From Chloroflexota bacterium (lineage in GTDB: Bacteria > Chloroflexota > Dehalococcoidia > SZUA-161 > SpSt-899), in contig JABHWQ010000464.1 in NCBI GenBank assembly GCA_018657655.1, positions 1 through 51,485 of the forward strand: DNA of 51,485 nt, written 5' to 3'. The first letter of the stretch is position 1. Each line of letters opens with the position of its first letter. Below the pieces are notes generated by a model. The model was not told where the DNA came from. It did not search any database and saw nothing but the letters and a program-made list of their open reading frames with translations. Below are positions 5,808-21,476 of this stretch, piece after piece. The translations under genes were made by a program, and so were the position numbers.

Positions 5808-6578
5808 ATGAAAACAGTTATTCTCTGTGGTGGACAGGGGATGCGGTTGCGTGAGGAGACCGAGTTTCGCCCCAAACCACTTGTCCCCATCGGCGGAAAA
5901 CCTATTCTCTGGCACATTATGAAAATCTATGCTCATTATGGGTTCCGCGAATTTGTGCTTCCACTTGGTTATCGTGGTGACATGATCAAAGAGTGGTTAT
6001 TGAACTATGAAACAATGACCAATGATTTCAGTATCCATCTTGGCGAGAATAGTTCAATTGAGTATCATGATTCACATTTAGAACAGGATTTTGAAGTCAC
6101 TTTGGCCGATACTGGCCAGAATACGATGACTGGTGGAAGAATAAAACTGGTAGAGAAATATATATCTGGTGATACTTTCATGGTGACATATGGTGATGGG
6201 GTAGCAGATATAGATATTCGCTCACTCATGGAGTATCATCACAGTCATGGTCGGCTAGCTACAGTTACAGTAGTACATCCATCCCAACGATTCGGTGTCC
6301 TTGCGTTAGATGAGAGTTCATCAGTAGTCGATTTTGCCGAAAAACCTCAGATGAAAGACTGGATTAGTGCTGGGTTTTTGGTGTTCAACCGACGTATATT
6401 TAACTATTTAGAAGGTGCTGATTGCATTTTAGAGCGTGAGCCTCTTGAACGCTTAACTTCCGAAGGTGAGCTAGTGGCTTATAAGCATGAGGGTTTCTTC
6501 TATGGTATGGATACATACCGTGATTATATGCATCTCAACGATTTGTGGGATAAAGGACAAACTCCATGGACGAAATGA
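5808..6578 (+). CDS. rfbF: Glucose-1-phosphate cytidylyltransferase
   Basis: 256 aa. [41 protein letters not shown] is a near-canonical RfbF/DdhA N-terminus, and the length is right. Confidence 0.9.
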
Positions 6579-7570
6579 CAATAGATAATCCTTTTTGGCA
6601 AGATCGTCCTGTTTTTGTGACTGGAAGTACGGGGTTACTGGGGGGTTGGTTGGTGCAGCGACTTCTTCAACTTGGCGCTGATGTTATTTGCTTGGTACGA
6701 GATTGGGTACCACAAAGTGAAATGTTTCAGGTACACCTTGTTGACAAAGTGAGGGTTGTTCGCGGTGATATCTGCGACCAAAAGCTCTTGGAAAGAATAT
6801 TGGGAGAATATGAAATAGAGACTGTTTTCCACCTAGCCGCTCAAACAATTGTGGGTATTGCTAACAGGAATCCTATTTCAACTTTCGAGACCAATATTGG
6901 TGGAACTTGGGCGCTGCTAGAGGCATGTCGGCGAAGTCCAAAAGTGAGTGGAATTGTAATGGCTTCGTCTGACAAAGCATATGGTGATCAAATAATACTG
7001 CCGTATAACGAAGATACGCCACTGCAGGGACGATTTCCCTATGACGTAAGTAAATCTTGTGCTGATCTAATCTCTCAATCGTATTCCAAAACTTATGAGG
7101 TTCCAGTAGCCATCACTCGCTGCGGTAATTTCTATGGTGGAGGCGACTTGAACTGGAATCGCATTGTTCCAGGAACCATCCGCTCAGTGCTGCGTGGTCA
7201 AAAGCCCATGATACGATCTAATGGGCAGTATGTGCGCGATTATTTTTATATAGAGGACGGTGTGGCTGCCTATATTTTACTAGCCGAGAAACTTGCAACA
7301 AGCCCACAGTTGAGTGGTGAGGCGTTTAACTTTTCTAATGAAAGGCCAGTATCTGTAATTGAGCTTGTTCAAGATATCCTACAGTTGATGGCATCCGATA
7401 TGGAGCCAATAATAGAAAATGAGGCTGCGAACGAAATACTCCAACAATATCTAAGTGCCGACAAGGCGAGACAGGTGATTGGCTGGCATCCTATATTCAA
7501 TTTGGATGAGGGCCTAAAAAGAACTATTTCTTGGTATGAGGACTTTTTTGACCATGAGCGATACGCATGA
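6566..7570 (+). CDS. rfbG: CDP-glucose 4,6-dehydratase (extended SDR)
   Basis: 334 aa. [19 protein letters not shown] is the Rossmann motif and YDVSKSCAD is the YxxxK motif. The gene overlaps the rfbF stop (alternative ATGA start at 6575) and sits between rfbF and rfbH as in ddh/asc clusters. Confidence 0.7.
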
Positions 7571-8873
7571 TTTGTTAAGAAAACAGATTATTGGCTTGGT
7601 TCGTGACTATCATAAAGCTGCGTTCCCACCGCAACAATTTGTGCCTGAAGAGAGTCCTGTTCCTTATGCAGGACGTATCTTTGATAGTGAAGAACTTGTC
7701 AACTTGGTAGAAGCATCTTTAGACTTCTGGTTAACTACCGGCCGTTTTGCGGATCAGTTCGAAGATGAGTTTGCTAAATTCTTTGGATTAAATCATTGCA
7801 TTTTGGTCAATTCTGGTTCTTCAGCTAATCTGCTAGCACTATCTTGCCTAACCTCACATAAACTTGGTGAACGACGCTTAAGGCCAGGTGATGAGGTTAT
7901 CACTATTGCTTCAGGTTTCCCGACAACGGTTAATCCAATCATACAAAATCGGCTCATACCAGTGTTTGTTGACATAGATATTCCAACTTATAATGTGGAC
8001 GTGACACAACTTGAGAAAGCCCGTTCCAAGCGGACTCGCGCTGTGATGCTGGCCCACACACTAGGAAACCCTTTTGATGTAGCGGCTGTCGTGCATTTTG
8101 CTAAACAGCACGATTTGTGGCTCATCGAGGATTGCTGCGATGCAGTGGGCTCGACCTATAATGGGCAGAAAATCGGAACTTTTGGAGATATCGCCACAGT
8201 TAGCTTCTATCCTGCTCATCATATCACGATGGGCGAAGGAGGAGCAGTTCTCACGAACTCCCCTCTCCTTGAAGAGTTGGCGCTTTCATTTCGCGACTGG
8301 GGGCGTGATTGCTGGTGTAATCCGGGCAAAGACAATACTTGTGGTAAGCGTTTCGAGAAGCAATTGGGTGACCTTCCCTATGGATACGACCATAAATATG
8401 TTTATTCACATATTGGCTACAATCTTAAGCTAACTGATATGCAAGCAGCTGTGGGGGTAGCACAGTTAATAAAACTCCCGGCTTTTATCAAGAAAAGACA
8501 GGATAATTTCCGCTACCTATATGAAGGGCTCAAAGATATAGAGCATTACTTCATTTTACCTCAGGCTACCCCAAACTCAGTCCCAAGTTGGTTCGGTTTT
8601 CCGCTGACGTTGCGATCAGAAGTCCCCTTCACTCGAAACGATGTAGTACAGCATTTAGAAAATCATAGAATCGCTACAAGATTACTCTTTGGGGGTAATT
8701 TAGTGCGTCAACCAGCATATCGCGACATTGAACATAGAGTTGTTGGTAATCTGGTAAACTCGGATTCTGTGATGCACCAAACCTTCTGGTTTGGGGTGTA
8801 TCCGGGGCTTACGCAAGCTATGCTTGACTATGTGATTATGACTCTGAAAACATTCGTAAATGGCAAACGGTAA
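7554..8873 (+). CDS. rfbH: CDP-6-deoxy-4-keto-hexose 3-dehydrase (E1; PMP/[2Fe-2S] enzyme of the DegT/DnrJ/EryC1 fold)
   Basis: The RfbH-like block is [35 protein letters not shown]. The catalytic Lys is replaced by His ([14 protein letters not shown], compared with [14 protein letters not shown] in the aminotransferase at 38705). An exact C-X57-C-X1-C-X7-C cysteine motif is present, counted from codons 8136, 8310, 8316 and 8340. The ORF track starts at 7536, but the ATG at 7554 is more likely. Confidence 0.85.
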
Positions 8874-8991: not shown

Positions 8992-10500
8992 ATGAGTAAT
9001 CTTAATTCAGCAGAACCATTATTCGTTTTTGACATAGCAAATAATCACATGGGTAGTAGCGAGCATGGCCTCAAAATCATAAGACAAATTCATGATGTCA
9101 CCGAAGGCTTTGCTTTCAGTTTCGGATTCAAGCTTCAGTACCGTAATCTGGACACTTTTATTCATGCAGACTTCAAAACGAGATTGGATTTTAAGTATGT
9201 CAAGCGTTTCTCTGAGACTCGTCTTCCGTGGGACGAGATGAAAATGATGAAAGATGAGGCGAAGAAACTGGGGTTTATCACGATATGTACACCTTTTGAT
9301 GAACCCTCTGTTGATAAGATTGAAGAACATGATTTTGATATCATCAAAGTCGCAAGTTGCTCATTCACTGATTGGCCTCTTTGGGAACGGATTTCCAGAA
9401 CTGAGAAGCCCATAATTGCCTCCACTGCTGGCGCTTCCCTTGGGGATATTGACAAAGTGGTAGCCTTCCTAGAGCATCGAGGGAAAGACTTTGCTCTCAT
9501 GCATTGTGTAGCGGAGTATCCCACATCTGACGCCAATTTAGAGTTGGGGCAGATAGAACTTCTCGAAAAGCGATTTCCTCAAATTAGAGTCGGATATTCT
9601 ACACATGAGAGTCCTGATAACATGGCCGCTATTAAAGTAGCAATCGGCAAAGGCTCAAGTATATTTGAAAGGCATGTTGGTTTGGAGACAGAACAAATTA
9701 GTTTAAACGCATACTCCGCTACTCCAGAGCAAATCAGGCGATGGTTAGAGTCAGCCCAAATGGCGTTTGAGATGTGCGGCGTTCACGAGAAACGCTCAGA
9801 ATTCAGTGAAAGGGGAATTACGGAGTTAAAGGCATTACGTAGAGGGGCGTTTGCGATGCGCCAAATTAAAAAAGGGGAACGGATAGGTCAGACAGACGTT
9901 TTCTTTGCGATACCTACCTTCCCAGGTCAGATTACTGCCAACGACATGTCAAAATACTCTGACTTCTACACCGAAGCAGATATTGAAGAAAAAGCTCCCT
10001 TGCTTGATTCTAATACACTGCGGAGAGATATTCGAGAAAACATATATACTATCATATTACAGGTTAGGGAACTGGTTGAAAGAAGTGGTGTGATAGTTCC
10101 CAAACAGGTTGATGTTGAAATCTCTCACCATTATGGCGTCGATCGCTTTTACGACTTCGGGCTTACCATATTTACAGTGGTAAATCGTGAATACTGCAAG
10201 AAGTTGCTCATCCTTTTGCCAAAACAGCAGCATGCTGAGCAGTCGCATAAGGTAAAGGAAGAGACTTTTCATATCTTATATGGCGACTTATGGGTTAACT
10301 TAGATGGAGAAGTCAGGCAATGTAATCCTGGAGATGTAGTTACGGTGAATAGAGAGGTAAAGCATAGCTTTGGCACTGATACGGGGGCTATCATTGAAGA
10401 GATTTCATCAACACATTTTGCTGATGACTCTTCTTATACTGATATTGCTATTATGCAAAATAAACATCGTAAAACCCAACTGACGTACTGGCTTGACTAA
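8992..10500 (+). CDS. NeuB-family PEP-condensing synthase fused to SAF and C-terminal cupin domains
   Basis: 502 aa. NeuB landmarks are FDIANNHMG, KLQ, TPFDE, IKVASC, ASTAG, LMHCVAEYPT, VGYSTHE and ERHVGLE. A SAF-like segment (RRGAFAMRQIKKGERI) follows. The last ~140 aa are cupin-like (QHAEQSHKVKEETFHILYGDLWV...VKHSF). Confidence 0.7.
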   Translation: MSNLNSAEPLFVFDIANNHMGSSEHGLKIIRQIHDVTEGFAFSFGFKLQYRNLDTFIHADFKTRLDFKYVKRFSETRLPWDEMKMMKDEAKKLGFITICTPFDEPSVDKIEEHDFDIIKVASCSFTDWPLWERISRTEKPIIASTAGASLGDIDKVVAFLEHRGKDFALMHCVAEYPTSDANLELGQIELLEKRFPQIRVGYSTHESPDNMAAIKVAIGKGSSIFERHVGLETEQISLNAYSATPEQIRRWLESAQMAFEMCGVHEKRSEFSERGITELKALRRGAFAMRQIKKGERIGQTDVFFAIPTFPGQITANDMSKYSDFYTEADIEEKAPLLDSNTLRRDIRENIYTIILQVRELVERSGVIVPKQVDVEISHHYGVDRFYDFGLTIFTVVNREYCKKLLILLPKQQHAEQSHKVKEETFHILYGDLWVNLDGEVRQCNPGDVVTVNREVKHSFGTDTGAIIEEISSTHFADDSSYTDIAIMQNKHRKTQLTYWLD

Positions 10501-10518
10501 TCTTTTTAATTTAGATAT

Positions 10519-11127
10519 TTGGATAAAGGAACAGTGAAGACAATTGCCTGGGATGTGGATGACGTTCTGAATGACCTGATGCGATCATGGTTTGACGACT
10601 CTTGGAGGCCCTCTCATCTAGATTGCTTGCTGGATTATGACGGGATTGTAGAAAACCCGCCGCATGAACTGTTATGTGTGAGTATGTCTGAGTATTTGAT
10701 TTCGCTGGATAGCTTTCGCTTCTCAGAAGCTATCAGAAAAATGCGCCCTGTACCAGAGGTGATAACTTGGTTCCACCAACATGGAGAGCGATTTCGACAC
10801 ATAGCACTCACGGCAACACCTCTACGGGCTGCACCTTTATCTTCCGCTTGGGTTATGCATCATTTCGGTAAGTGGATTCGCTCTTTTAATGTGATTCCCT
10901 CCAAACGACAAAGTGAACAAATACCAATATACGACCAGTCAAAAGAGGAATTTTTGAGATGGTTTGGGAGAGTAGATATCTTAGTCGATGATAGTCCGGT
11001 GAATGTCGCGGAAGCACAAACATTGGGGATTCAGGCAATACTCTTACCACGCCCTTGGAATCAAAGCCCTTTGACTCTAGTTGAGGCTCTCAACGTCTTG
11101 GCGACTTTGGCAGATACGACTTCTTGA
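10519..11127 (+). CDS. HAD-superfamily phosphatase (NT5C/5-prime-nucleotidase-like)
   Basis: 202 aa with the DxDxV nucleophile motif near the N-terminus (IAWDVDDVLND). The start is TTG at 10519 (alternative GTG at 10534). It lies directly after the NeuB-like gene. Confidence 0.6.
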   Translation: MDKGTVKTIAWDVDDVLNDLMRSWFDDSWRPSHLDCLLDYDGIVENPPHELLCVSMSEYLISLDSFRFSEAIRKMRPVPEVITWFHQHGERFRHIALTATPLRAAPLSSAWVMHHFGKWIRSFNVIPSKRQSEQIPIYDQSKEEFLRWFGRVDILVDDSPVNVAEAQTLGIQAILLPRPWNQSPLTLVEALNVLATLADTTS

Positions 11128-11160
11128 AAGGCACAGTCAGAGACTGAGGTAATAGAGCTT

Positions 11161-12963
11161 ATGAAATTATCTGATTACATATTTCAACGCCTTGCTAAAG
11201 AGGGGGTACGACATGTCTTCCTTTTGCCAGGCGGTGGTGCAATGCATCTTGTGGATTCTCTTGGTAAGTGCAAGGAAATTGAATTTGTCTGCAATCTCCA
11301 CGAGCAGGCTTGTGCAATAGCAGCCGATGCTTATAGCCAATATACGGGCAACCTTGGTGTGGCATTGGTTACGACTGGCCCGGGGGGCACAAATACTGTA
11401 ACTGGGGTGGCGGGGGCTTGGCTTGATTCCACCCCCTGTTTATTCATTTCGGGTCAAGTCAAACGAACTGACCTCATTGGTGATCGTGGAGTGCGACAGA
11501 TGGGCTTCCAGGAACTCAATATTGTGCATATAGTAGAATCCATTACCAAGTATGCAGTCACAGTTGTTGACCCAAATTCTATTAGGTATCACCTAGAAAA
11601 GGCACTGTTTTTTGCCAGAAATGGCCGTCCAGGCCCTGTATGGCTTGATATTCCGCTAGATGTACAAGCTGCCCATATTAACGAGGATGAGTTGGAAGGA
11701 TTCGATCCTAAGGAAATCACAACATCACTTAAAAACAGCGTGCTCAAACAACAGATAAGCGAGCTAATACAACTTCTCAATCAGGCTGAGAGACCAGTTA
11801 TATTAGTAGGAAATGGTGTTAGGCTAGCAAAAGCGATAGGAGACTTTTACCAACTAATTGAGACCCTTCAAATTCCCGTTCTCACCACATGGAGAGCAAC
11901 TGATTTTTTAGGAGAAGACCATCCTCTCTATATTGGCCGACCAGGGGCTATTGGGCAGCGAGGGGCTAATTTCGCCCAGCAGAATTCAGATTTGATATTG
12001 ATTCTTGGGGCGCGTCTTGATCTTGGGCAAACAGGATACAGCCACTCTAATTTTGCTCGAACTGCTAAAAAAATCATGGTTGATGTTGATAATGCCGAGA
12101 TAGAGAAGATGGAATTTAAGATCGACATACCAATATGCGTTGATGCAAAGGGTTTTATTCGAGAATTTCTCCAACAAAAGAATACCACAGTAGTCAAAGA
12201 TCGATCATCTTGGTTGTCACGCTGTCGAGAATGGAAGTCTAGTTACCCTGTTGTCCTGCCCAACTACTGGGATGAGTCGATGGGTGTAAGCCTCTACGTT
12301 CTTGTAGACGTGCTATCTGATGAGATGTCCGCTGACGATTTACTGGTGCCAGGCAGCTCAGGAGCTTGCAGTGAGGTTACTATGCAAGCGTTCAGGGTGA
12401 AGCCAGGCATGCGTGTTTTGAATAATCCTGGCCTTGGAGCAATGGGGTATGGGCTTCCTGCCAGTATAGGTGCCTGCCTAGGGAGCGGGCGTAAACGGAC
12501 GATATGTGTTGTTGGGGATGGGGGATTCCAACTAAATATCCAAGAGTTAGAGACAATTAAGCGTTTAAATCTACCAATTAAGGTTTTCGTGTTGAACAAT
12601 GAAGGATACGCCTCTATAAGGGCGACGCAGCAGTCCCATTTTGAGGGGCGTTTCGTAGCTAGTAGTGTATCAAGCGGATTAACCCTTCCCGATAGCCTCA
12701 AGATTGCTTCTGCCTATGGCTTAGCTTCGGCACAAATATTGAACCATTCTCACATTACGGAACATGTACGTCAAGTGCTAGAGCAAGACGGCCCCGTAGT
12801 GTGTGATGTGATGATCTCGCCTAATCAGAGCACTTCACCACGACTGTCTTCGATGCAAGGAGCGAATGGTACGATGGTGTCTAAACCGTTGGAGGACTTA
12901 TGGCCTTTTCTGGACCGCAAAGAATTCTTGGCCAATATGATTATTCCACCATTAGATGAGTAG
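11161..12963 (+). CDS. Thiamine-diphosphate-dependent enzyme, acetolactate-synthase large-subunit-like (YerE-like candidate sugar carboligase)
   Basis: 600 aa. The Pyr domain reads HEQACAIAADAYSQYTGNLGVALVTTGPGGTN. The ThDP/Mg motif is GDGGFQLNIQELETIKRLNLPIKVFVLNNEGY (GDG-X-NN). No small regulatory subunit or other ilv genes are nearby. Confidence 0.8.
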   Translation: MKLSDYIFQRLAKEGVRHVFLLPGGGAMHLVDSLGKCKEIEFVCNLHEQACAIAADAYSQYTGNLGVALVTTGPGGTNTVTGVAGAWLDSTPCLFISGQVKRTDLIGDRGVRQMGFQELNIVHIVESITKYAVTVVDPNSIRYHLEKALFFARNGRPGPVWLDIPLDVQAAHINEDELEGFDPKEITTSLKNSVLKQQISELIQLLNQAERPVILVGNGVRLAKAIGDFYQLIETLQIPVLTTWRATDFLGEDHPLYIGRPGAIGQRGANFAQQNSDLILILGARLDLGQTGYSHSNFARTAKKIMVDVDNAEIEKMEFKIDIPICVDAKGFIREFLQQKNTTVVKDRSSWLSRCREWKSSYPVVLPNYWDESMGVSLYVLVDVLSDEMSADDLLVPGSSGACSEVTMQAFRVKPGMRVLNNPGLGAMGYGLPASIGACLGSGRKRTICVVGDGGFQLNIQELETIKRLNLPIKVFVLNNEGYASIRATQQSHFEGRFVASSVSSGLTLPDSLKIASAYGLASAQILNHSHITEHVRQVLEQDGPVVCDVMISPNQSTSPRLSSMQGANGTMVSKPLEDLWPFLDRKEFLANMIIPPLDE

Positions 12964-13107
12964 AGCGAAAGTTTTAAGAAACCTTTAAGGGCCAACTAGT
13001 GGAAATCACCGATAAATAATCGATAGGCATGCAACAGTTTTTGGTTGTAAGATAAATTAGTAGAGTAAAATTATGTCGGGAAGCCGTTTGGTGGCTTTAT
13101 CAAAATT

Positions 13108-14124
13108 ATGCAATGTCCATGTTGTGAATCAGACAGAGTAATTCTTTCCAATACCCCCGAACCACATATGTTTTGCAGGGTATGTTTCCATCGCTGTAAG
13201 ACCCTCATCCCATCTAAGAACTACTATAAAAACTTATCAGGCCGATCAAAAATGCTTGAAGAAAATTTGGGAAGGAAAAGTCGAGAAAGGCTTGAATTTT
13301 TAGAGCAATATTTGCAGAGAGGAATGCTAATATTAGAAATTGGCTGCGCTGAGGGGGCACTCGGTGAAGTCATTAGACGTAATTTTGATGTTGCCTATTA
13401 TGGCATAGAGCCTTCACTTGATGCCAAGATTGCCATATCAAGATTAGACGAAGTGTGGGTATCAATTAACAAAGTACCTCCAAATCTGCAATTTGATATC
13501 ATAATAGCATTTCATGTGTTCGAACACATTCACAATATTGGAAATATGATGTCTAAGTTATGTAAGTTGCTTAGTAGTAACGGGATTATCATATTTGAGA
13601 CGCCTAATTATTTTGGAAACACACGGTTACCATGGGACTTCAATAAGGAGCATATCCACTTGTTTAGTCCGGCATCTATATCATGTCTACTTGAAAAACG
13701 GGGGGTTGGCGTGAGAGAACTGAGTACAGGTCATTACGAGTCAGCCATCTATGATGACTCAATGAGGGTAGTTGGCTCTAAGAAAAAAGGGGTAAAGGAA
13801 CTAAAGCATAATTTTGTTGATCGTCTTCAGCGCTTCTTGGGTGATCGATATATAATATATGGGATCGGGGGGGATTTTGAAGCTCTAGTGTTACCTTACG
13901 TAAAAGCTTCTAGTGTAATCGCGATTATAGATAGTTCCAAGGACAAGGTTGGTAAGCGCGTGATTGGCAAGACCGTTCAAGGGCCAGGAGTAATTGATGA
14001 TTATCTCACTGAAATATTTTTCATTGCCACATATCGATACCAAAATCAAATTATACAAGTGCTCAATGAGAAGGGGATTTGTAGATCGCATATTATTACT
14101 TTGCAAGATATTTTAGAGAATTGA
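13108..14124 (+). CDS. SAM-dependent methyltransferase with N-terminal Cys4 zinc ribbon and C-terminal Rossmann-like domain (NDP-hexose C-methyltransferase-like architecture)
   Basis: 338 aa. It has a Cys4 ribbon (CPCC...CRVC), SAM motif I (LEIGCAEGALG), FDIIIAFHVFEHI, and a C-terminal IIYGIGGDF...IDSSKDKVGKRVIGKTVQGP resembling the C-terminal domain of TylC3-type C-methyltransferases. Confidence 0.65.
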   Translation: MQCPCCESDRVILSNTPEPHMFCRVCFHRCKTLIPSKNYYKNLSGRSKMLEENLGRKSRERLEFLEQYLQRGMLILEIGCAEGALGEVIRRNFDVAYYGIEPSLDAKIAISRLDEVWVSINKVPPNLQFDIIIAFHVFEHIHNIGNMMSKLCKLLSSNGIIIFETPNYFGNTRLPWDFNKEHIHLFSPASISCLLEKRGVGVRELSTGHYESAIYDDSMRVVGSKKKGVKELKHNFVDRLQRFLGDRYIIYGIGGDFEALVLPYVKASSVIAIIDSSKDKVGKRVIGKTVQGPGVIDDYLTEIFFIATYRYQNQIIQVLNEKGICRSHIITLQDILEN

Positions 14125-14182
14125 TTTTAGAGAGCATCACCAAATATAATGTGCGGAAGAGTTAACGTGGAGGGCTCGTTTA

Positions 14183-15247
14183 ATGACAGATAGCAAAAAA
14201 GCTGATCTTTGCGATAGAATGCAAACCCGGGAGAGGCTCAAAATAGAAAAGCCTATTGTATACAATAAATTCATAGAACTGGATGCAAAATTGAATAAAG
14301 GAGAGGCCCCTCCCCCGGTAATTGAAATCGGTTATCGGTATGATTGTAACCTCAAATGTAAACACTGTTTTGCAAGCCTGTTCGACAAGAAAGAGAAAAG
14401 TCTATCATTATTGGATATGAAAAACTTATCTGAGCAGGCGAATGAGCTTGGCATATATCAGTTTATACTCCAGGGCGGAGAGCCACTTTATTGGCCGGAT
14501 TTCGACGATGTAGTGAATGCCATTAATCCGAAAGAATTTTATATGGGGCTTGTTACTAATGCCACATTACTAAACCGAGAAAAAATCATTCATCTTAGAA
14601 ATATTGGAATCGATAAAATCGTCATGAGTCTTGATTCCTACGATGTTGATCAATTTGAAGGAATTCGTAATCGACCTGGGTTGTTTGACCACACTATTGC
14701 CATGCTGCTTCAGGCTAAAGAGGTTGGCTTGCGGGTTGTGATCAATACTTTAGCCACAAAACAAAACGTCAGAGATCCCCAGTTGCTCGAATTGGTTAAG
14801 TTCGCGGAGAAGCATAACATCATAGTTTACGTGAATTTTGCAGCGCCGATTGGGAATTGGGAAGGCCGGTATGACCTGCTTCTCGATCAGGATGATGCAG
14901 ATTATATTTATAATTTGAATCGGCAGCATGAGGTGATAAAGAGAGACATATTCCCTTATATGGGGATTAAAGTGGGGTGTCCCGCTTTTAGAGAGATTGT
15001 GTATATAACACAATATGGCGATGTCCTTCCATGCCCATTTATACACATTTCCGTTGGCAATATATTTGATGAACCTCTGTCTCGGATTATAGAGAAAGGA
15101 ATGCGAGTTAAGTGGTTTAAGGATCGGTCTCAGGTATGCCTGGCGTGTGAAGACGTAAATTTCATAAAAAACAAGATATCAAAAACATATGGATTGCCTT
15201 CTCCTGTCAGCATGCACGAGATATTTACGGAAGATGAATTTGATTAA
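14183..15247 (+). CDS. Radical SAM enzyme with Cys-rich C-terminal auxiliary-cluster (twitch/SPASM-like) region
   Basis: 354 aa. The CxxxCxxC motif is CNLKCKHC, with GGEPL downstream. C-terminal cysteines are GCPAF...LPCPF...VCLAC. Confidence 0.85.
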   Translation: MTDSKKADLCDRMQTRERLKIEKPIVYNKFIELDAKLNKGEAPPPVIEIGYRYDCNLKCKHCFASLFDKKEKSLSLLDMKNLSEQANELGIYQFILQGGEPLYWPDFDDVVNAINPKEFYMGLVTNATLLNREKIIHLRNIGIDKIVMSLDSYDVDQFEGIRNRPGLFDHTIAMLLQAKEVGLRVVINTLATKQNVRDPQLLELVKFAEKHNIIVYVNFAAPIGNWEGRYDLLLDQDDADYIYNLNRQHEVIKRDIFPYMGIKVGCPAFREIVYITQYGDVLPCPFIHISVGNIFDEPLSRIIEKGMRVKWFKDRSQVCLACEDVNFIKNKISKTYGLPSPVSMHEIFTEDEFD

Positions 15248-15271
15248 TATGGTGAATCAAAGATAACTGCT

Positions 15272-16555
15272 ATGTACATGTATATTGGAATTGAAATCAG
15301 CTCTTGGTGTAATGCTAAGTGCCCGTGGTGTTTTACTACTAAGCCCGCCGATAGGGTTAATTTTAACCCAGTTGCGAATGTGATGAGCCTAGATACTTTT
15401 ATAGACGTAATCGAACGGTTAGAAACATTGGGTTTGCTTCATGATGATGTTGTTATTAATCTTTACGAAATCGGCGAACCTTTTCTAAACAGAGATATAT
15501 CTAGAATTATCAGTTATTTGAATTCTAAATCTCTTAAATATGCCATAAGCACCAATGCTTCAGTCTTACCATCATTTGAAGAAGGAACCAACATTTTAAG
15601 TAATTTATCCTATCTTATTATTTCTATGCCAGGCTTTAGTCAAGAGTCTTATGATAGAGTACACGGTTTTCGGTTTGACAGAATTAAGAAGAATATCATA
15701 GGACTTATAACAAATTTTCGCAATAGCGGTTTCATAGGAGATGCCAGACTTATCTATCACGTCTATCAGCTTAATATAGATGAGATATATAAAGCCAAGG
15801 CATTTGCTGATGAAAACCATATTGACTTCTATCCTTATTATGCGATTCTTTATGAATGGAAATATGTGTGGGAATACCTATCCGATACCCTTTCGTATGA
15901 TTTGCTTAAGAAAGCCTCTGAAGAATTATTCTTGGGGAATATTGAGAAGACAATATCGGCTCGCAGGCCTGATTTTGTGTGTGAGTTTCTTAATATGTTG
16001 TTGATTGATGTAGATTGCGATTTAAAGACTTGTTGTCAAATCAAGAAAGGGGATCCGGGCTATTCATATGGCAGTATTTTCAACTTATCAGCAGAAGAAA
16101 TAATAACAAAACGAACTACTCAGCAGATATGCAAGAAATGTCAGACAAAAGGAATGGATTATTACCTATCTTGCTACACATTATTTAATCTACATTCCAG
16201 CACTGCGGGGCAATCTGAAAACGGCCATACACATAAAGACTTACTGAAATTAATACGGGGGAGTGCTGGGCAGGAAATCATTTTGTTTGGTGCCGGTGAA
16301 TTCGGTATAAAAGCGGTCAGATATCTAAATGACGAAAACATTGGGGTCAATTATTTCTCGGATAACAGCCCATTAAAAATTGGGAAACAAATTTCTGGAG
16401 TTAATGTTATTGCGCCTTGGGATATACTTAATCAATGCACAGATCCATTGGTTATTATTACTACCATAAATCACAGGCAGGTATTTAATCAGATTTCTCA
16501 GTTAGGAATCAGATCAGTTTATTACTTCCCGCTAGAGGTATATATACAACAATGA
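15272..16555 (+). CDS. Radical SAM enzyme with Cys-rich middle region fused to a C-terminal Rossmann-like domain
   Basis: 427 aa. The CxxxCxxC motif is CNAKCPWC, 13 aa from the start. Cys-rich segments are CEF...DCDLKTCCQ...CKKCQ. The C-terminal EIILFGAGEFG...SDNSPLKIGKQISGVNVIAP aligns with the C-terminus of the methyltransferase at 13108. Confidence 0.8.
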   Translation: MYMYIGIEISSWCNAKCPWCFTTKPADRVNFNPVANVMSLDTFIDVIERLETLGLLHDDVVINLYEIGEPFLNRDISRIISYLNSKSLKYAISTNASVLPSFEEGTNILSNLSYLIISMPGFSQESYDRVHGFRFDRIKKNIIGLITNFRNSGFIGDARLIYHVYQLNIDEIYKAKAFADENHIDFYPYYAILYEWKYVWEYLSDTLSYDLLKKASEELFLGNIEKTISARRPDFVCEFLNMLLIDVDCDLKTCCQIKKGDPGYSYGSIFNLSAEEIITKRTTQQICKKCQTKGMDYYLSCYTLFNLHSSTAGQSENGHTHKDLLKLIRGSAGQEIILFGAGEFGIKAVRYLNDENIGVNYFSDNSPLKIGKQISGVNVIAPWDILNQCTDPLVIITTINHRQVFNQISQLGIRSVYYFPLEVYIQQ

Positions 16556-17577
16556 AGAAATATTCTGAACTTCGCGATACCGAACGTTTCTCGGTAGAGA
16601 GATTATTGCCACTGAAATTTCCCCTAAGTATATATATTGAGACAACAAATCGATGTGGTTTTCGATGTCGATATTGCCCTCTATCACTTTCCGATTATGC
16701 AAAAATCATAGGCGAGTCCAGGAATATGAGTCTTCTCGAGTTTAAGAATATCTGCGATAGTATCCAAGTGGGCGGACGACTCAAAGTACTTCGGTTTTAT
16801 CTAATGGGCGAGCCCTTGTTAAATCCGCATTTGTCAGAAATGATAAAGGTGGCTTGTCAAATGAGGTTGGCTGAAAGAACAGAAATCACTACCAACGCGG
16901 TACTTCTAAATGGAGAAAAGTCTCGAGAGATTATTAATTCAGGGCTGGATTATCTCAGAGTCAGCATATCGAGCGTGGATCAGAGTCGACACGAATACAT
17001 TACCCAAACAAACATCCAAGTAGAACATATTTATAGCAATATCAAACAATTTAAACAGATTCGAGACGGAATGGGGCGTCAAAAGCCGTTTCTCTACGTT
17101 AAAATGCTTGACTCCTTAAACAATGTAGAAAATTTAAAATTTTTGCAAATGTATCAAGCGGTCGGGGATGAAATAGTCATTGAAAAGCCAATGAATTGGG
17201 ATAGCTTCAATAATCATGATTTGCTTCGGTCTACCTATAAAGAAGATAAGATGCCCGATTCAGAGGGAATGTACCCGTACCCGAAAACAGTGTGTCCCTT
17301 TCCTTTTTATACCCTTGCAGTCAATGTTAACGGGGATGTGACGGTATGTTGTGTTGATTGGAACAAGGGAACCAAAGTTGGTAATGTTTTTGAAGCCACT
17401 CTCAAATCTATCTGGGATGGGGATGAAATGCGGGATTTCCGTCGGATGCATATATTAAGGAAGCGAACTCTAAATTCCTCATGCGCCAATTGCCAATTTC
17501 TTTCTACTGTCCCCGATAATTTGGATAACATGTCAGAGTCAAAGATTAAAGCTATAATTGGTTCGAGTCAATTATAA
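16552..17577 (+). CDS. Radical SAM / SPASM-like enzyme
   Basis: 341 aa. The CxxxCxxC motif is CGFRCRYC. The C-terminal Cys set is CPFPF...VCCVDW...CANCQ. The gene has a 4-nt ATGA overlap with the preceding gene. Confidence 0.85.
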   Translation: MKKYSELRDTERFSVERLLPLKFPLSIYIETTNRCGFRCRYCPLSLSDYAKIIGESRNMSLLEFKNICDSIQVGGRLKVLRFYLMGEPLLNPHLSEMIKVACQMRLAERTEITTNAVLLNGEKSREIINSGLDYLRVSISSVDQSRHEYITQTNIQVEHIYSNIKQFKQIRDGMGRQKPFLYVKMLDSLNNVENLKFLQMYQAVGDEIVIEKPMNWDSFNNHDLLRSTYKEDKMPDSEGMYPYPKTVCPFPFYTLAVNVNGDVTVCCVDWNKGTKVGNVFEATLKSIWDGDEMRDFRRMHILRKRTLNSSCANCQFLSTVPDNLDNMSESKIKAIIGSSQL

Positions 17578-17660
17578 AGAGCAATGCAAAATATTGAAGT
17601 TGTAGATGTGAACCATGCCTTTAGATTAGGTGATGGTGGTTCAATCCATGAAAGAGAAGA

Positions 17661-18683
17661 ATGAAAATGGGTTTACCTGTCTTATCAATATGTATTCCAA
17701 CATTCAATCGTTCACAGTATCTTAAGGAGTGTCTGGAAAGTGTGTTATCGTCAGCTAAAGGGTACGAGGATCAAATCGAAATAGTAATTTCTGATAATGC
17801 CAGTACTGATGATACCGCCTCAGTTGTGAGTGAATTCGAAAAACGCAGCTCAAGAATAAGGTATCACAGAAATGACACTAATATCTATATAGAAAACTTT
17901 TTTGTGGTATCTGGATTGGCATTGGGGGAATACGTATGGATATTTGGTGATGATGATAAAGTGATGGATGGGGCTATCCCTACCATCTTAAATCGAATTA
18001 AGTCAGGATATGACTTAATATTTTGCAACTATTCAATTTGGTCAAAAGATTTTTCTACATTACAGAACGAAAGGAACCGTTTGGTTGATTTAGAAGAAGA
18101 GTATAATGATGCAAATTTATTACTGGAACGCATCGGGATCTACTTGGGTTACATATCGATTTGTATAATCAAAAAGAACGTCTTCTTTAGTACTCCGCCC
18201 GGGCTACACATGGAATACGGTTTTCCCCATGTATATTGCATGTACGCAGGGTTAGCTACAAATTGTCGTGCGGTATATATTCCCGCAACGTTAGTGCTCA
18301 ATCGCGCGGGCAATGTTTACTTACCTGAGTGGAATAAATTCTTTATAACCGGAACCTCTCTAGTTTTTGAGGCGCTTCTGGAAAAAGGGTATACTCAAAA
18401 GGCAGTATATCGTGCCAAACACCAACATCTCAGATCTATCATTAGTTATAGTTGGACGCAATCTCAGAGTTCTGCTGATTTAAAAACGGTGGCTCAACTA
18501 GCATTACCTCATTATAAGAAAGACTGGCTATTTTGGGTAACTTGCATGCCTATCGCATATCTTCCTGTCCCGCGGTTCTTCTTGAGATTCACCATAAAAA
18601 TGGCTCAATTAGTGTTAGTTGTGAACAGATCGGTGTCGAGAAGATTCAACCATGCCTTCAGCTTTTTAGCGAGACGAAGATAG
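17661..18683 (+). CDS. Family 2 glycosyltransferase
   Basis: 340 aa. LSICIPTFNRSQYLKECLESVL...IVISDNASTDDT is a typical GT-A/GT2 N-terminus. The C-terminus has a hydrophobic segment. Confidence 0.8.
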   Translation: MKMGLPVLSICIPTFNRSQYLKECLESVLSSAKGYEDQIEIVISDNASTDDTASVVSEFEKRSSRIRYHRNDTNIYIENFFVVSGLALGEYVWIFGDDDKVMDGAIPTILNRIKSGYDLIFCNYSIWSKDFSTLQNERNRLVDLEEEYNDANLLLERIGIYLGYISICIIKKNVFFSTPPGLHMEYGFPHVYCMYAGLATNCRAVYIPATLVLNRAGNVYLPEWNKFFITGTSLVFEALLEKGYTQKAVYRAKHQHLRSIISYSWTQSQSSADLKTVAQLALPHYKKDWLFWVTCMPIAYLPVPRFFLRFTIKMAQLVLVVNRSVSRRFNHAFSFLARRR

Positions 18684-18818
18684 TGTGGAGTGGTTTATTG
18701 AGTTAGGGCATTCTGTTAAGAGGGTGGAACTATACCGTAGAAGCGGTCATGTGAACCTTGGCAAACAACAAGTTTTTACCGATAAGAATTTCAGCGGGCT
18801 TTTGAAGGGCGTTATGGC

Positions 18819-19757
18819 ATGAATCAAGTCGTTATTACAGGTGCCACCGGGCCTTTAGGCATTGCCTTATGTAAGTATCTTGCAGAATTAGGAATATCTG
18901 TGACCGCAATAGCTCGCCCTGGGTCTAGACGCAGGGCAGATATCCCGGTTTCACAGAAGATTCAGATTATCGAGTGTGATCTTGGTGATTTATTTTCGCT
19001 TAGTGATAAGATTGGTTATAATTATGATACTTTTTTTCATATTGCGTGGGATACAGGGTCGCGCGAAATTGTTAATGACCCGCTTATTCAGTCGCGTCAG
19101 GTTATCTATCCCTTAGATGCTGTGCGGCTTGCCCATAATTTGGGGTGTAGGGCATTTGTTGGTGCCGGATCTCAGGGTGAATATGGTAACAGTGGAAGTT
19201 TACTTGCGCCAGATTCTCCGGAAAGGCCTGTATCAAGCTACAGTATTGCAAAATATGCTGCGGGTAAACTCAGTCGACAGTTGTGTGAATCTTTCGGGAT
19301 GCGGCATTGTTGGGGCCGTATTTTGAGTTTGTATGGACCGTTTGATAAAGAGACAACGAGTATTATGTATTGCGTTTATACTTTGTTAAAGGGGGAGAGA
19401 CCAGTATTAACTAAATCAGAACAGATGTGGGATTTCATTTACAGTGTTGATTGCGCAAAAGCCTTTTATCTTATTGCGACAAAGGGAAGACATGGCATGG
19501 CTTATCCAATAGGTACGGGAAAGGCTAGGTCAATGAAAGAATATTTTGAATGTATCAGAGGTTATATAAACCCATCGCTTAAATTAGGTTTCGGAGAGAA
19601 GCCTTATGCTCCAAACCAGCTTATGCTTCTATGCTCGGATAATACGGTGCTAAAGACTGATACCGGGTTTGAGCCGGAGTACACTTTTGAAGAAGGGATT
19701 AGAGAGACTATTGAATGGGCCAAGAAGAGGGTGCAGACGGAGAATAATAGCGGATAA
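18819..19757 (+). CDS. NAD(P)-dependent epimerase/dehydratase/reductase family SDR (candidate sugar ketoreductase)
   Basis: 312 aa with ITGATGPLGIALCKYL (Rossmann) and YSIAKYAAGK (YxxxK). It is the last gene of the + strand operon. Confidence 0.75.
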   Translation: MNQVVITGATGPLGIALCKYLAELGISVTAIARPGSRRRADIPVSQKIQIIECDLGDLFSLSDKIGYNYDTFFHIAWDTGSREIVNDPLIQSRQVIYPLDAVRLAHNLGCRAFVGAGSQGEYGNSGSLLAPDSPERPVSSYSIAKYAAGKLSRQLCESFGMRHCWGRILSLYGPFDKETTSIMYCVYTLLKGERPVLTKSEQMWDFIYSVDCAKAFYLIATKGRHGMAYPIGTGKARSMKEYFECIRGYINPSLKLGFGEKPYAPNQLMLLCSDNTVLKTDTGFEPEYTFEEGIRETIEWAKKRVQTENNSG

Positions 19758-19948
19758 ATTCCATGGCCGGTTAACTTCATTCACTCCATTAATTGGGATC
19801 CCGTCAACAGGGATGCAAATAGGCCTGGTAACTCAGACCCGGTAAATGTAGTTTATTAGTATAATTAGTTATCCGGATTAGGTAGCCAAGATTATATGAT
19901 AGCAGTTTGTGGTCAGAATGCCCAACCGTTTTTCGTTTATGTCTTGCA

Positions 19949-20854: not shown

Positions 20855-20885
20855 ATTACCCTTCTTTTACCTCAAATGTTGTTGA

Positions 20886-21425: not shown

Positions 21426-21476
21426 TTAACCTCATCAATGTCGCTGTTTTTGGTTCGTTTCGATGATGATATATGC

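What the first reader, a model, noticed from the sequence alone, without database searches (positions are those of the whole stretch)
13108..17577. C-methyltransferase-like enzyme followed by three different radical-SAM enzymes: an uncharacterised sugar-tailoring block
- The four genes are packed with gaps of 58 and 24 nt and a 4-nt overlap.
- The first has the zinc-ribbon + class I methyltransferase + C-terminal Rossmann architecture of NDP-hexose C-methyltransferases (TylC3/EvaC type).
- The next three each have their own CxxxCxxC (CNLKCKHC, CNAKCPWC, CGFRCRYC) and distinct Cys-rich C-terminal regions suggesting auxiliary Fe-S clusters (twitch/SPASM-like).
- They are not recent duplicates of one another.
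- The block lies between the CDP-4-keto-sugar/ThDP genes and a GT2 plus an SDR.
- The radical-SAM enzymes I know to act on sugars (DesII, BtrN, AprD4, GenK/Fom3-type methylases) occur singly in antibiotic pathways. I know of no characterised cell-surface glycan pathway with three in series.
- This is my best candidate for a previously undescribed system: radical-mediated remodelling (C-methylation, epimerisation, dehydration or C-C chemistry) of a CDP-deoxysugar.
Basis: partly seen in the sequence, partly recalled or inferred. Interest (0 to 1): 0.8.

Follow-up and report, generated by a model that had tools for sequence, protein, structure and literature searches.

The report
Radical-SAM tailoring of a branched deoxysugar
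A methyltransferase and three unrelated radical-SAM enzymes sit inside a complete pathway for a CDP-linked, side-chain-branched deoxysugar in a marine Chloroflexi surface-glycan locus; the same enzymes recur next to the same sugar genes in many phyla, and none has a characterised close relative, so this looks like real, untested sugar chemistry and not peptide or cofactor maturation.

Summary
They encode a Zn-ribbon/class-I methyltransferase and three radical-SAM enzymes that are 23-25% identical to each other, each with CX3CX2C and a C-terminal Cys-rich twitch/SPASM region.

None reaches the cut-off of any curated NCBIfam family. No conserved precursor peptide was found.

The block is not a free-standing system. 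It is an accessory tailoring module inside a known kind of pathway, the YerE-type acyl-branched 3,6-dideoxyhexose route: RfbF/G/H, a NeuB-cupin fusion, a HAD-like protein, a YerE-like ThDP enzyme, an SDR and a GT2.

- **rSAM1:** relatives occur in at least 309 species. In 36 of 40 loci with full flanks they lie within 10 kb of rfbH, the ThDP enzyme or NeuB-cupin.
- **rSAM3:** a BtrN-like twitch enzyme.
- **rSAM2:** rare (22 clusters among 5.8 billion). It carries the C-terminal domain of NDP-hexose C-methyltransferases and sits where other loci have a B12-radical-SAM.

The chemistry is inferred, not shown. No paper that I could search links radical SAM to these branched sugars. Verdict: new variant of a known kind, moderately high interest.

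The parts
5808..6578 (+). rfbF, glucose-1-phosphate cytidylyltransferase
   Evidence: TIGR02623 314.5 bits, above the cut-off of 300.25
6566..7570 (+). rfbG-like CDP-glucose 4,6-dehydratase (SDR)
   Evidence: Best NCBIfam is TIGR02622 at 233 bits, below the cut-off of 278; Pfam Epimerase/GDP_Man_Dehyd
7536..8873 (+). rfbH (E1), CDP-6-deoxy-4-hexulose 3-dehydrase
   Evidence: NF011936 RfbH 741.8 bits, above the cut-off of 423
8992..10500 (+). NeuB-like PEP-dependent synthase fused to a lyxose-isomerase-type cupin; inferred maker of the 2-keto-3-deoxy acid donor
   Evidence: Pfam NeuB + Cupin_2; PDB 3g8r SpsE-like 1e-119 and D-lyxose isomerase 2y0o 2e-8; 22 of 25 large metagenome loci with this gene also have the ThDP gene
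10519..11127 (+). HAD-like (NT5C-type) protein with a DVDDV motif; inferred phosphatase
   Evidence: Weak PF06941 hit; the position-equivalent gene in L011 hits HAD_2; orthologues at 44-60% identity in many loci
11161..12963 (+). YerE-like ThDP-dependent carboligase
   Evidence: Three TPP domains; best PDB match is 8rph, JanthE, a YerE-like enzyme, 1e-121 (PMC12188165); canonical GDG motif at residue 452
13108..14124 (+). Zn-ribbon + class I SAM methyltransferase + small C-terminal Rossmann-like domain
   Evidence: the C-terminal domain is homologous to the rSAM2 C-terminus (27% over 82 aa, E 7e-5)
14183..15247 (+). rSAM1: radical SAM with a 3-Cys twitch/SPASM remnant (C266, C284, C319)
15272..16555 (+). 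rSAM2: radical SAM core + Cys-rich region (C237, C254/255, C287xxC290) + C-terminal PF08484-like nucleotide-binding domain (about residues 325-427)
16552..17577 (+). rSAM3: BtrN-like twitch radical SAM (C248, C266/C267, C311xxC314)
17661..18683 (+). GT2 glycosyltransferase that follows the radical-SAM genes here and in L008, L096 and L097
18819..19757 (+). SDR (Epimerase family); candidate YerF-like side-chain reductase
   Evidence: Pfam; a 56% orthologue lies directly after rSAM1 in L057, and further 45-60% orthologues lie within 10 kb of rSAM1 in L047, L053, L069 and L080
31621..33060 (-). B12-binding radical SAM in the same glycan locus; possibly part of the same tailoring set
   Evidence: Pfam B12-binding + Radical_SAM; B12-rSAM genes lie next to rSAM1 in about half of related loci

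Best explanation
The four genes are tailoring enzymes for a CDP-linked, 4-C-acyl-branched 3,6-dideoxyhexose that is built by the genes directly upstream and then installed in a cell-surface glycan.

Proposed order:
1. RfbF, RfbG and RfbH make CDP-4-keto-3,6-dideoxy-D-glucose.
2. The NeuB-cupin fusion isomerises a ketose (phosphate) to an aldose and condenses it with PEP. The HAD-like protein dephosphorylates the product, giving a 2-keto-3-deoxy acid.
3. The YerE-like ThDP enzyme decarboxylates this acid and adds it to C4 of the keto sugar.
4. An SDR reduces the side-chain ketone.
5. The Zn-ribbon methyltransferase, a distant TylC3/TcaB9 relative, methylates the sugar or side chain. I favour C-methylation next to a carbonyl.
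6. The three twitch-type radical-SAM enzymes each abstract a hydrogen atom from an unactivated C-H of the nucleotide-bound sugar or its polyhydroxylated side chain. The outcome would be dehydrogenation, epimerisation or dehydration, as with BtrN, HygY or DesII, with the auxiliary cluster handling the electron.
7. rSAM2 holds the CDP-sugar through its PF08484-like domain and occupies the slot filled by a B12-radical-SAM in other loci.
8. The GT2 then transfers the finished sugar.

Shown: gene content, family relationships, conserved cysteines, conserved synteny. Inferred: every chemical step, the order of steps, and the substrate of each radical-SAM enzyme.
For: 1. Family assignments. RfbF and RfbH pass their NCBIfam equivalog cut-offs. 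The ThDP enzyme's best solved relative is the YerE-like JanthE, 1e-121 (PMC12188165). NeuB-cupin matches an SpsE-like protein (1e-119) and D-lyxose isomerase (2e-8).

2. A known scheme fits. Aldolase-made alpha-keto acid + YerE-like enzyme + CDP-4-keto-3,6-dideoxyglucose + reductase (+ methyltransferase) is the published scheme for erwiniose, caryophyllose and gastriose (PMC9306805; PMC12247030).

3. Synteny.
- rSAM1 relatives were found in at least 309 GTDB species. Of 40 loci with full 10-kb flanks, 33 have rfbH, 33 have ThDP, 32 have NeuB-cupin, 29 have all three and 36 have at least one.
- The gene order rfbF-G-H, NeuB-cupin, HAD-like, ThDP, MT, rSAM1, SDR, GT2 recurs in Syntrophobacteraceae and Deltaproteobacteria MAGs, and the same gene set in other orders in Flavobacteriales, Bathyarchaeia and Marinitoga.
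- The rSAM1-rSAM2-rSAM3 run recurs in L007 and L008, and rSAM1+rSAM2 recur in L096 and L097, always with a GT2 gene downstream.
- rSAM3 relatives also sit next to NeuB-cupin/ThDP in L094.

4. Nucleotide-sugar handle. The rSAM2 C-terminus hits PF08484, the 'C-methyltransferase C-terminal domain'. Orthologue P0006 scores 27.6 bits against a cut-off of 23.5; the window protein scores 16.6 bits, E 0.007. It also hits the NeuD/PglB N-terminal model. The same module is on this MT and on the FkbM-type MTs of L096 and L013.

5. Sugar-acting relatives. The rSAM3 profile matches BtrN at 4e-24 over both core and twitch, and DesII at 1e-10. The rSAM2 model (pLDDT 85) is closest to BlsE, SuiB, DesII, viperin and BtrN. 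rSAM1 matches MoaA at 1e-25 and BlsE at 1e-16.

6. One related locus encodes a GT2::radical-SAM/SPASM fusion.

7. The surrounding 40 kb is a glycan locus: Wzx-type flippase, GT4, GT2, UDP-sugar dehydrogenases, aminotransferases.
Against: - No biochemical data exist for any of the three radical-SAM families. Their solved relatives are remote (11-22% identity in the Foldseek alignments) and include peptide maturases (SkfB, SuiB, PqqE), so the fold alone does not fix the reaction.
- No E3/AscD-type reductase for RfbH was found among the window's ORFs of at least 150 aa.
- RfbG scores below its NCBIfam cut-off.
- About half of NeuB-cupin/ThDP loci lack any radical SAM, so the enzymes are optional and their point of action is open.
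- In L015 the MT, rSAM1 and rSAM3 orthologues sit with a split transketolase and not with YerE/NeuB-cupin within 10 kb. Holophaga (L075) has rfbFGH + MT + rSAM1 without NeuB-cupin or ThDP. The branch may therefore not be the target.
- The MT's link to C-methyltransferases is weak. A protein of unknown function (3cc8) scores higher.
- The small Rossmann-like domain has a GxGxxG motif and also resembles Rex/CoA-binding folds, so it could bind NAD(H) and not CDP.
Confidence: 0.7

Rival explanations
1. The radical-SAM enzymes act on the free side-chain precursor (the NeuB-derived 2-keto-3-deoxy acid or its sugar-phosphate precursor) before the ThDP enzyme couples it to the CDP sugar. They would then shape the donor, not the nucleotide sugar.
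For: rSAM1 is as tightly linked to NeuB-cupin and ThDP (32 and 33 of 40 loci) as to rfbH (33 of 40). rSAM1's 3-Cys auxiliary site resembles MoaA, which binds a small-molecule substrate at the open iron. YerE-like enzymes accept varied functionalised donors (PMC9306805).
Against: rSAM2 and the MTs carry a domain related to the NDP-sugar C-methyltransferase C-terminal domain and to the NeuD/PglB N-terminal domain. Holophaga (L075) and several other loci have rSAM1 with rfbFGH or another NDP-sugar dehydratase but no NeuB-cupin or ThDP within 10 kb.
Confidence: 0.13
2. The enzymes act late, on the sugar after GT2 has transferred it to a polyprenyl-phosphate carrier or to the growing glycan.
For: A GT2 always follows the radical-SAM genes, and GtrA-like genes follow in L008, L011 and L096. 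L007 has a GT2::radical-SAM fusion.
Against: The proteins have no detected membrane-associated domains. The PF08484-like module points to a nucleotide-bound substrate. Radical-SAM enzymes need cytoplasmic reductants, which still allows lipid-linked substrates on the inner face, so this is weak evidence.
Confidence: 0.08
3. rSAM2 is a functional replacement for the cobalamin-dependent radical-SAM methylase and itself installs a C-methyl group (or another C-C bond) on an unactivated carbon without B12.
For: rSAM2 sits directly after rSAM1, where L011, L013 and L015 have a B12-radical-SAM. In L097 a 47-codon ORF just upstream of rSAM2 matches the N-terminus of those B12-rSAM genes (67% over 24 aa, E 4e-4), which looks like a remnant. 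The rSAM2 extra domain comes from C-methyltransferases.
Against: L008 has rSAM2 and two B12-rSAM genes, and the window has a B12-rSAM at 31621-33060. rSAM2 shows no similarity to known B12-independent radical-SAM methylases in the NCBIfam or PDB searches. The remnant match is short.
Confidence: 0.07
4. The three proteins are peptide (RiPP), protein or cofactor maturases that merely lie inside a glycan locus.
For: SPASM/twitch enzymes are often peptide maturases. The top Foldseek hits for rSAM1 are SkfB and SuiB. NCBIfam lists many maturase families as weak hits.
Against: Every such hit is far below its family cut-off. No conserved small ORF was found. Intergenic gaps are 24-145 nt. The linkage to the same sugar genes across many bacterial and two archaeal lineages is strong.
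Confidence: 0.02

Closest known systems
YerE/YerF (yersiniose A) and the ErwE, MMAR_2332 and MygE pathways for erwiniose, caryophyllose and gastriose (PMC9306805, PMC12247030)
   Same: RfbF/G/H-type genes for CDP-4-keto-3,6-dideoxyglucose, a YerE-like ThDP carboligase (best solved relative is JanthE), an SDR reductase, methyltransferases and a glycosyltransferase, all in one glycan locus.
   Different: The keto-acid donor appears to come from a PEP-dependent NeuB-cupin fusion plus a HAD-like protein, not from a pyruvate aldolase. One to four radical-SAM enzymes are added. The word 'radical' does not occur in the main text of the review PMC12247030 or the JanthE paper, and I saw no radical-SAM enzyme in the parts of PMC9306805 that I read.
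BtrN (2-deoxy-scyllo-inosamine dehydrogenase, twitch radical SAM)
   Same: The rSAM3 profile matches both the core and the twitch domain (E 4e-24). The auxiliary-cluster cysteines align: C248, C266 and C311xxC314 correspond to the matching BtrN positions. rSAM2 has a similar Cys pattern.
   Different: Low identity. rSAM3 is about 70 residues longer and has an extra, nearly invariant Cys (C267) next to a cluster ligand. The context is a CDP-sugar glycan locus, not an aminoglycoside cluster. The reaction is unknown.
DesII and BlsE (radical-SAM enzymes acting on a TDP-sugar and a sugar nucleoside)
   Same: They are among the best sequence and structure matches of all three proteins. Their substrates are nucleotide- or nucleoside-linked sugars.
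   Different: Remote (11-19% identity in the structural alignments). DesII and BlsE occur singly in antibiotic pathways. rSAM2 adds a separate nucleotide-binding domain that neither has.
MoaA (GTP 3',8-cyclase)
   Same: Best solved sequence relative of rSAM1 (1e-25). Both have only three conserved cysteines for the second cluster.
   Different: rSAM1 scores 90 bits against the MoaA model's cut-off of 284. It has no molybdopterin context.
TylC3 / TcaB9 / KijD1 NDP-hexose 3-C-methyltransferases
   Same: Four-Cys N-terminal Zn ribbon, class I MT domain, an aligned 'EH' motif (H182 invariant) and a small C-terminal alpha/beta domain. Profile E-values are 6e-12 to 3e-10.
   Different: About 80 residues shorter. 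Pfam PF08421 and PF08484 are not detected in the window MT. A protein of unknown function (3cc8) is a better match. The methyl acceptor is unknown.
B12-dependent radical-SAM methylases (GenK/Fom3 type)
   Same: Homologues occur next to rSAM1 in about half of related loci and once in this window.
   Different: None of the three enzymes in the finding has a B12-binding domain.

Membership tests
Radical SAM superfamily | CX3CX2C motif and a PF04055 hit at the gathering score | tested here: met
   Scores of 80.2, 29.8 and 58.2 bits against a cut-off of 29.5 (rSAM2 is borderline). The motif cysteines are invariant in A1, A2 and A3.
SPASM/twitch subgroup | C-terminal Cys-rich domain (PF13186) that binds one or more auxiliary 4Fe-4S clusters | tested here: met
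   rSAM1 31.6 and rSAM3 58.4 bits against a cut-off of 21.5. rSAM2 gets no PF13186 hit at threshold (orthologue P0002 scores 20.0) but has conserved C237, C254/255 and C287xxC290. rSAM1 conserves only three Cys. Cluster content itself is not testable here.
BtrN family (for rSAM3) | Twitch domain with four Cys in BtrN spacing; dehydrogenation of a secondary alcohol on a cyclitol or sugar | tested here: inconclusive
   The Cys spacing and alignment fit. Similarity is at profile level only. The reaction and substrate are not testable with these tools.
Characterised SPASM/twitch equivalogs (anSME, PqqE, MoaA, AhbC/D, NirJ, mycofactocin, sactipeptide and other peptide maturases, tungsten-cofactor maturase) | NCBIfam score at or above the curated cut-off | tested here: not met
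   Best hits are 109 bits against 395 (rSAM1), 50 against 380 (rSAM2) and 91 against 380 (rSAM3).
RiPP maturase system | An adjacent, conserved precursor-peptide gene | tested here: not met
   Only two tiny called ORFs (17584-17664 and 18685-18822). Neither is conserved in related loci; all matches have E > 0.2.
NDP-hexose C-methyltransferase (TylC3/TcaB9) | N-terminal four-Cys Zn ribbon (PF08421) | tested here: inconclusive
   The four Cys are invariant and the second CxxC aligns with the C-methyltransferases, but there is no PF08421 hit.
NDP-hexose C-methyltransferase (TylC3/TcaB9) | C-terminal domain PF08484 | tested here: not met
   There is no PF08484 hit for the MT C-terminus even at E <= 5. 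The link is only indirect: the MT C-terminus is homologous to the rSAM2 C-terminus, and the orthologue of that protein passes PF08484.
NDP-hexose C-methyltransferase (TylC3/TcaB9) | Methylation of a carbon next to the 4-keto group of an NDP-sugar | not testable with these tools
   The only evidence is the aligned, invariant His in the 'EH' motif. The identification of this His as the catalytic base in TcaB9 rests on my recollection of the TcaB9 literature.
YerE-like ThDP carboligase (for the upstream gene that defines the pathway) | Three TPP domains, closest to YerE-like enzymes, encoded next to CDP-4-keto-3,6-dideoxyglucose genes | tested here: met
   Activity on a keto sugar is not testable here.
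CDP-3,6-dideoxyhexose pathway (RfbF/G/H/I) | All four enzymes present, including the E3 reductase (RfbI/AscD) | tested here: not met
   RfbF and RfbH pass their cut-offs and RfbG is below its cut-off. No FNR-like 2Fe-2S reductase was found among the ORFs of at least 150 aa in the window or in L011-L013.

The most novel reading that the evidence does not exclude
The radical-SAM set carries out multi-step radical remodelling of a nucleotide-linked higher-carbon sugar, yielding a sugar class not yet seen in glycans. Possible steps are deoxygenation, epimerisation, or C-C bond formation or cyclisation between the side chain and the ring. Under this reading rSAM2 is a new architectural class: a radical-SAM core docked to its NDP-sugar through the substrate-binding domain of the C-methyltransferases. 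It would have displaced a cobalamin-dependent radical-SAM methylase and would perform B12-independent C-alkylation.
Probability: 0.15. Interest if true: 0.85.

Novelty: new variant of a known kind. Interest (0 to 1): 0.62.

Why it matters
Acyl-branched deoxysugars (yersiniose, erwiniose, caryophyllose, gastriose, aurantose) are surface antigens whose biosynthesis has so far been explained with ThDP enzymes, aldolases, reductases and ordinary methyltransferases.

This locus, and hundreds like it in uncultured bacteria and archaea, add dedicated radical-SAM enzymes to that scheme. They also add a PEP-dependent NeuB-cupin route to the side-chain donor.

- If the enzymes act as proposed, radical-SAM sugar chemistry extends from a few antibiotic pathways to a widespread class of cell-surface glycans.
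- They would predict sugars that have not been observed.
- They would supply new catalysts for C-H functionalisation of nucleotide sugars.
- rSAM1 is also a practical genomic marker for this pathway.

Tried and rejected
- **Curated families:** searched for a named family for each radical-SAM enzyme in NCBIfam. Nothing came near a cut-off.
- **Precursor peptides:** looked at the two tiny ORFs that gene callers place at 17584-17664 and 18685-18822. They are not conserved.
- **Promoters and terminators:** the scan of 5000-20500 gave no more sites than shuffled sequence, so it says nothing about operon limits.
- **Plasmid DNA similarity:** no match.
- **Literature:** searches combining radical SAM with yersiniose, branched-chain sugar, O-antigen/SPASM, or CDP-glucose/thiamine found nothing relevant. 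The in-silico survey of more than 200 YerE-like clusters (Krug et al. 2024, Angew. Chem. e202403535) is not held in the library, so I could not check whether it notes radical-SAM genes.
- **rSAM1 as a stand-in for the missing E3 reductase:** considered and set aside as chemically implausible. Half of the NeuB-cupin/ThDP/RfbFGH loci lack both.
- **Short rSAM2-like proteins** (P0013-P0021, 28-39% identity, no C-terminal domain): P0020 lies next to ftsK/argS and not sugar genes, so these were not used as evidence.
- **A 51% rSAM3 relative** (L095) is not in a sugar locus, so family-wide claims for rSAM3 are limited.
- **Structure prediction of the MT:** not attempted, because its homologues could not be submitted to that tool.

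Full report
**1. Observation**

| Gene | Coordinates | Length |
|---|---|---|
| MT | 13108-14124 | 338 aa |
| rSAM1 | 14183-15247 | 354 aa |
| rSAM2 | 15272-16555 | 427 aa |
| rSAM3 | 16552-17577 | 341 aa |

- All are on the + strand, separated by 58 nt, 24 nt and a 4-nt overlap.
- Pfam gives Methyltransf_23 for the first. It gives Radical_SAM for the other three (80.2, 29.8 and 58.2 bits; cut-off 29.5), with SPASM hits for rSAM1 and rSAM3.
- The quoted CX3CX2C motifs are present and invariant in family alignments.
- The three radical-SAM proteins share only 23-25% identity.
- Gene callers started the MT later (290 aa). However, homologues in a 1.8-billion-protein library align from residue 2, and the four N-terminal cysteines are invariant, so the Zn ribbon and the 13108 start are real.

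**2. Origin and setting**

- Identical proteins are named by NCBI as coming from a Chloroflexi MAG, and the same contig was assembled from several metagenome samples and sequencing runs (JGI, ENA, Logan).
- Roughly positions 150-39,800 of the window form one large glycan locus. It holds a Wzx-type flippase, GT2 and GT4 transferases, two UDP-sugar dehydrogenases, aminotransferases, acetyltransferases, an FkbM methyltransferase, a split transketolase and a further B12-binding radical SAM.
- Directly upstream of the finding are:
  - RfbF (passes its NCBIfam cut-off).
  - An RfbG-like dehydratase (below its cut-off).
  - RfbH (passes).
  - A 502-aa NeuB-cupin fusion.
  - A HAD-like protein.
  - A 600-aa ThDP enzyme.
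- The ThDP enzyme's best solved relative is 8rph (1e-121). This is JanthE, a YerE-like carboligase (PMC12188165).
- The NeuB part matches an SpsE-like structure at 1e-119. The cupin part matches D-lyxose isomerase at 2e-8.

**3. The frame is a known pathway type**

- Steitz et al. (PMC9306805) proposed a unifying scheme for acyl-branched sugars and partly demonstrated it:
  1. An aldolase makes a functionalised alpha-keto acid.
  2. A YerE-like ThDP enzyme adds it to CDP-4-keto-3,6-dideoxy-D-glucose.
  3. A YerF-like reductase and sometimes a methyltransferase finish the sugar (erwiniose, caryophyllose, gastriose).
- A 2025 review (PMC12247030) adds that more than 200 YerE-like clusters have been predicted in silico.
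- The window has every element of this scheme. The difference is that a PEP-dependent NeuB-cupin plus a HAD-like protein stands where the pyruvate aldolase would be.
- From this I infer that the donor is a 2-keto-3-deoxy acid. It would be made from an aldose (phosphate) supplied by the cupin isomerase. This is inference only.

**4. Conservation**

*rSAM2 is rare.*
- There are 22 clusters among 5.8 billion proteins, and only about eleven are orthologues at 56-76% identity.
- On the longer contigs it is always next to rSAM1 and is followed downstream by a GT2 gene:
  - L007: extra rSAM, rSAM1, rSAM2, rSAM3, RfbH-like with an intein, GT2::rSAM fusion.
  - L008: B12-rSAM, rSAM1, rSAM2, rSAM3, GT2, GtrA, B12-rSAM, with rfbHGF on the other strand.
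  - L096: NeuB-cupin, aldolase II, ThDP, MT, rSAM1, rSAM2, GT2, GtrA.
  - L097: ThDP, MT, rSAM1, rSAM3, rSAM2, GT2.
  - Sources.

*rSAM1 is widespread.*
- A scan of one genome per GTDB species found at least 309 relatives. They include Elusimicrobia, Planctomycetes, Spirochaetota, Nitrospirota, Omnitrophota, Bacteroidota, Lentisphaerae, Acidobacteria, Thermotogota, Patescibacteria, Bathyarchaeia and Methanosarcinales.
- Among the 40 of the 80 fetched loci that have full 10-kb flanks, 33 carry rfbH, 33 the ThDP gene and 32 NeuB-cupin. All three are present in 29 loci and at least one in 36. A B12-radical-SAM is present in 19.
- The gene order rfbF-G-H, NeuB-cupin, HAD-like, ThDP, MT, rSAM1, SDR, GT2 recurs with little change in the Syntrophobacteraceae and Deltaproteobacteria loci. 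The other loci examined carry the same gene set in different orders.

*rSAM3* relatives (668 clusters) are sometimes in the same kind of locus (L094) and sometimes not (L095).

*The reverse test.*
- Seeding on NeuB-cupin in metagenomes, 22 of 25 large loci have the ThDP gene and 17-18 have the rfbF, rfbG and rfbH genes.
- Only 9 have rSAM1 at my threshold, and 11 have any radical SAM.
- The radical-SAM enzymes are therefore dedicated but optional tailoring enzymes of this pathway, not its core.

**5. Anatomy of the enzymes**

*rSAM1*
- It conserves only three C-terminal cysteines (C266, C284, C319). The fourth cysteine of the window protein is not conserved.
- Its best solved sequence relative is MoaA (1e-25), followed by SkfB and BlsE.
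- A confident model (pLDDT 90) is closest to SkfB, SuiB, BlsE, PqqE, MoaA and viperin.

*rSAM3*
- It aligns with BtrN over both the core and the twitch domain (profile E 4e-24). C248, C266 and C311xxC314 fall on the BtrN auxiliary-cluster positions.
- It has an additional, nearly invariant C267.
- DesII is also a hit (1e-10).

*rSAM2*
- It has a similar Cys pattern and two strongly conserved motifs of its own, PGFSQxSYxxxHG and YHVYQFN.
- Its model (pLDDT 85) is closest to BlsE, SuiB, DesII, viperin and BtrN.
- Its last ~100 residues form a separate Rossmann-like domain with a GxGxxG motif. This domain hits PF08484, the C-terminal domain of NDP-hexose C-methyltransferases. The window protein scores 16.6 bits and orthologue P0006 scores 27.6 bits against a cut-off of 23.5.
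- The same region also hits the NeuD/PglB N-terminal model.

*The shared module*
- The same small domain is at the C-terminus of the window's MT (27% over 82 aa, E 7e-5).
- It is also at the N-terminus of the FkbM-type MTs that take the MT's place in L096 and L013.
- I read it as a shared handle for the nucleotide sugar. NAD(H) binding is the alternative.

*The methyltransferase*
- The family has 78 representative clusters at E < 1e-30.
- As a profile it matches TylC3-type, KijD1 and TcaB9 sugar 3-C-methyltransferases at 6e-12 to 3e-10. The alignment runs from the second CxxC to an aligned EH motif.
- An uncharacterised methyltransferase (3cc8) scores better, and PF08421 and PF08484 are not detected in the window protein.

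**6. Tests that could have refuted the sugar reading**

- No curated NCBIfam family comes near its cut-off.
- The tiny ORFs are not conserved.
- One 47-codon ORF upstream of rSAM2 in L097 matches the N-terminus of the B12-radical-SAM genes of L011 and L015 (E 4e-4). This hints that rSAM2 displaced such a gene.
- The MT-to-GT2 stretch (13.1-18.4 kb) has 35-42% GC (mostly below 40%) against 43-49% in the ThDP gene and the SDR on either side. That fits a module acquired separately.

**7. Caveats**

- No E3 reductase for RfbH is encoded in the window or in L011-L013.
- In L015 the MT, rSAM1 and rSAM3 orthologues lie with a split transketolase and not with YerE/NeuB-cupin. The window also has a split transketolase at 21477-23245.
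- Holophaga has rfbFGH, MT and rSAM1 without NeuB-cupin or ThDP within 10 kb.
- The target of the radical-SAM enzymes may therefore be the hexose ring and not the side chain.
- Every reaction assignment is inference from remote relatives.

**8. Verdict**

- The finding is real and the enzymes are uncharacterised.
- The best-supported reading is radical-SAM tailoring of a CDP-linked, YerE-type branched 3,6-dideoxyhexose.
- This is a new variant of a known kind of pathway and not a categorically new system.
- The rSAM2 architecture and the multi-phylum rSAM1 association are the parts most worth an experiment.

Noticed in passing
window 41148-41233 (-): A c-di-GMP-I riboswitch (81 bits, E 1.7e-14) lies upstream of a 320-aa ORF with no Pfam hit (39970-40932, -). 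That ORF heads the long minus-strand run of glycan genes (19949-39841). Part of the glycan locus may therefore be under c-di-GMP control.
   Followed up: no
window 31621-33060 (-): A fourth radical-SAM gene, of the B12-binding class, lies in the same glycan locus. B12-radical-SAM genes sit directly beside rSAM1 in many related loci (19 of 40).
   Followed up: partly
window 21477-23245 (-); L015 1899-3661: A split transketolase (N and C subunits) lies with an SDR, a hexapeptide acyltransferase and an aldo-keto reductase. Transketolase-type ThDP enzymes are another known route to branched sugars (PMC12247030). A 36-38% identical pair lies near the MT/rSAM1/rSAM3 orthologues of the Planctomycetales locus L015. 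This may be a second branching system.
   Followed up: partly
window 13100-18400: The MT-rSAM1-rSAM2-rSAM3-GT2 stretch has 35-42% GC (mostly below 40%) against 43-49% in the adjacent ThDP and SDR genes. This suggests the tailoring block was acquired as a module.
   Followed up: partly
L007 4742-7486 and 7531-9795: A related contig encodes an RfbH-like DegT protein interrupted by an intein with a LAGLIDADG domain. It also encodes a 754-aa fusion of a GT2 glycosyltransferase with a radical-SAM/SPASM domain.
   Followed up: partly
L008 9403-11040 (-): The RfbH-like gene is called as a 545-aa product with an N-terminal PemK-toxin domain hit. This may be a fusion or a mis-called start.
   Followed up: no
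L097 6074-6217: A 47-codon ORF just upstream of rSAM2 matches the N-terminus of the B12-radical-SAM genes of L011 and L015 (67% over 24 aa, E 4e-4). It may be a remnant of a displaced gene.
   Followed up: partly
window 29921-30991 and 31151-31615 (-): Two adjacent ORFs both hit the N-terminal part of DUF354. The second hits only profile positions 3-51. This looks like a duplicated or disrupted gene fragment.
   Followed up: no
L068 (Marinitoga lauensis LG1) 12130-16942: In this cultured isolate the ThDP, rfbG and rfbH homologues are each split into two or more ORFs. These are either sequencing frameshifts in a long-read assembly or a decaying cluster, which matters if the strain is used for experiments.
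   Followed up: no
window 44686-47406 (+): A 906-aa protein combines GNAT, CoA-binding, succinyl-CoA-ligase-like and ATP-grasp domains (Pat-type acetyltransferase / ADP-forming acyl-CoA synthetase architecture). It lies outside the glycan locus.
   Followed up: no
window 1584-3485 (+) and 148-1566 (+): A 633-aa ORF with no Pfam hit follows a DUF1616 protein and precedes the Wzx-type flippase. It is a candidate polymerase or GT-C-like membrane protein of the locus. I ran no membrane-topology analysis.
   Followed up: no
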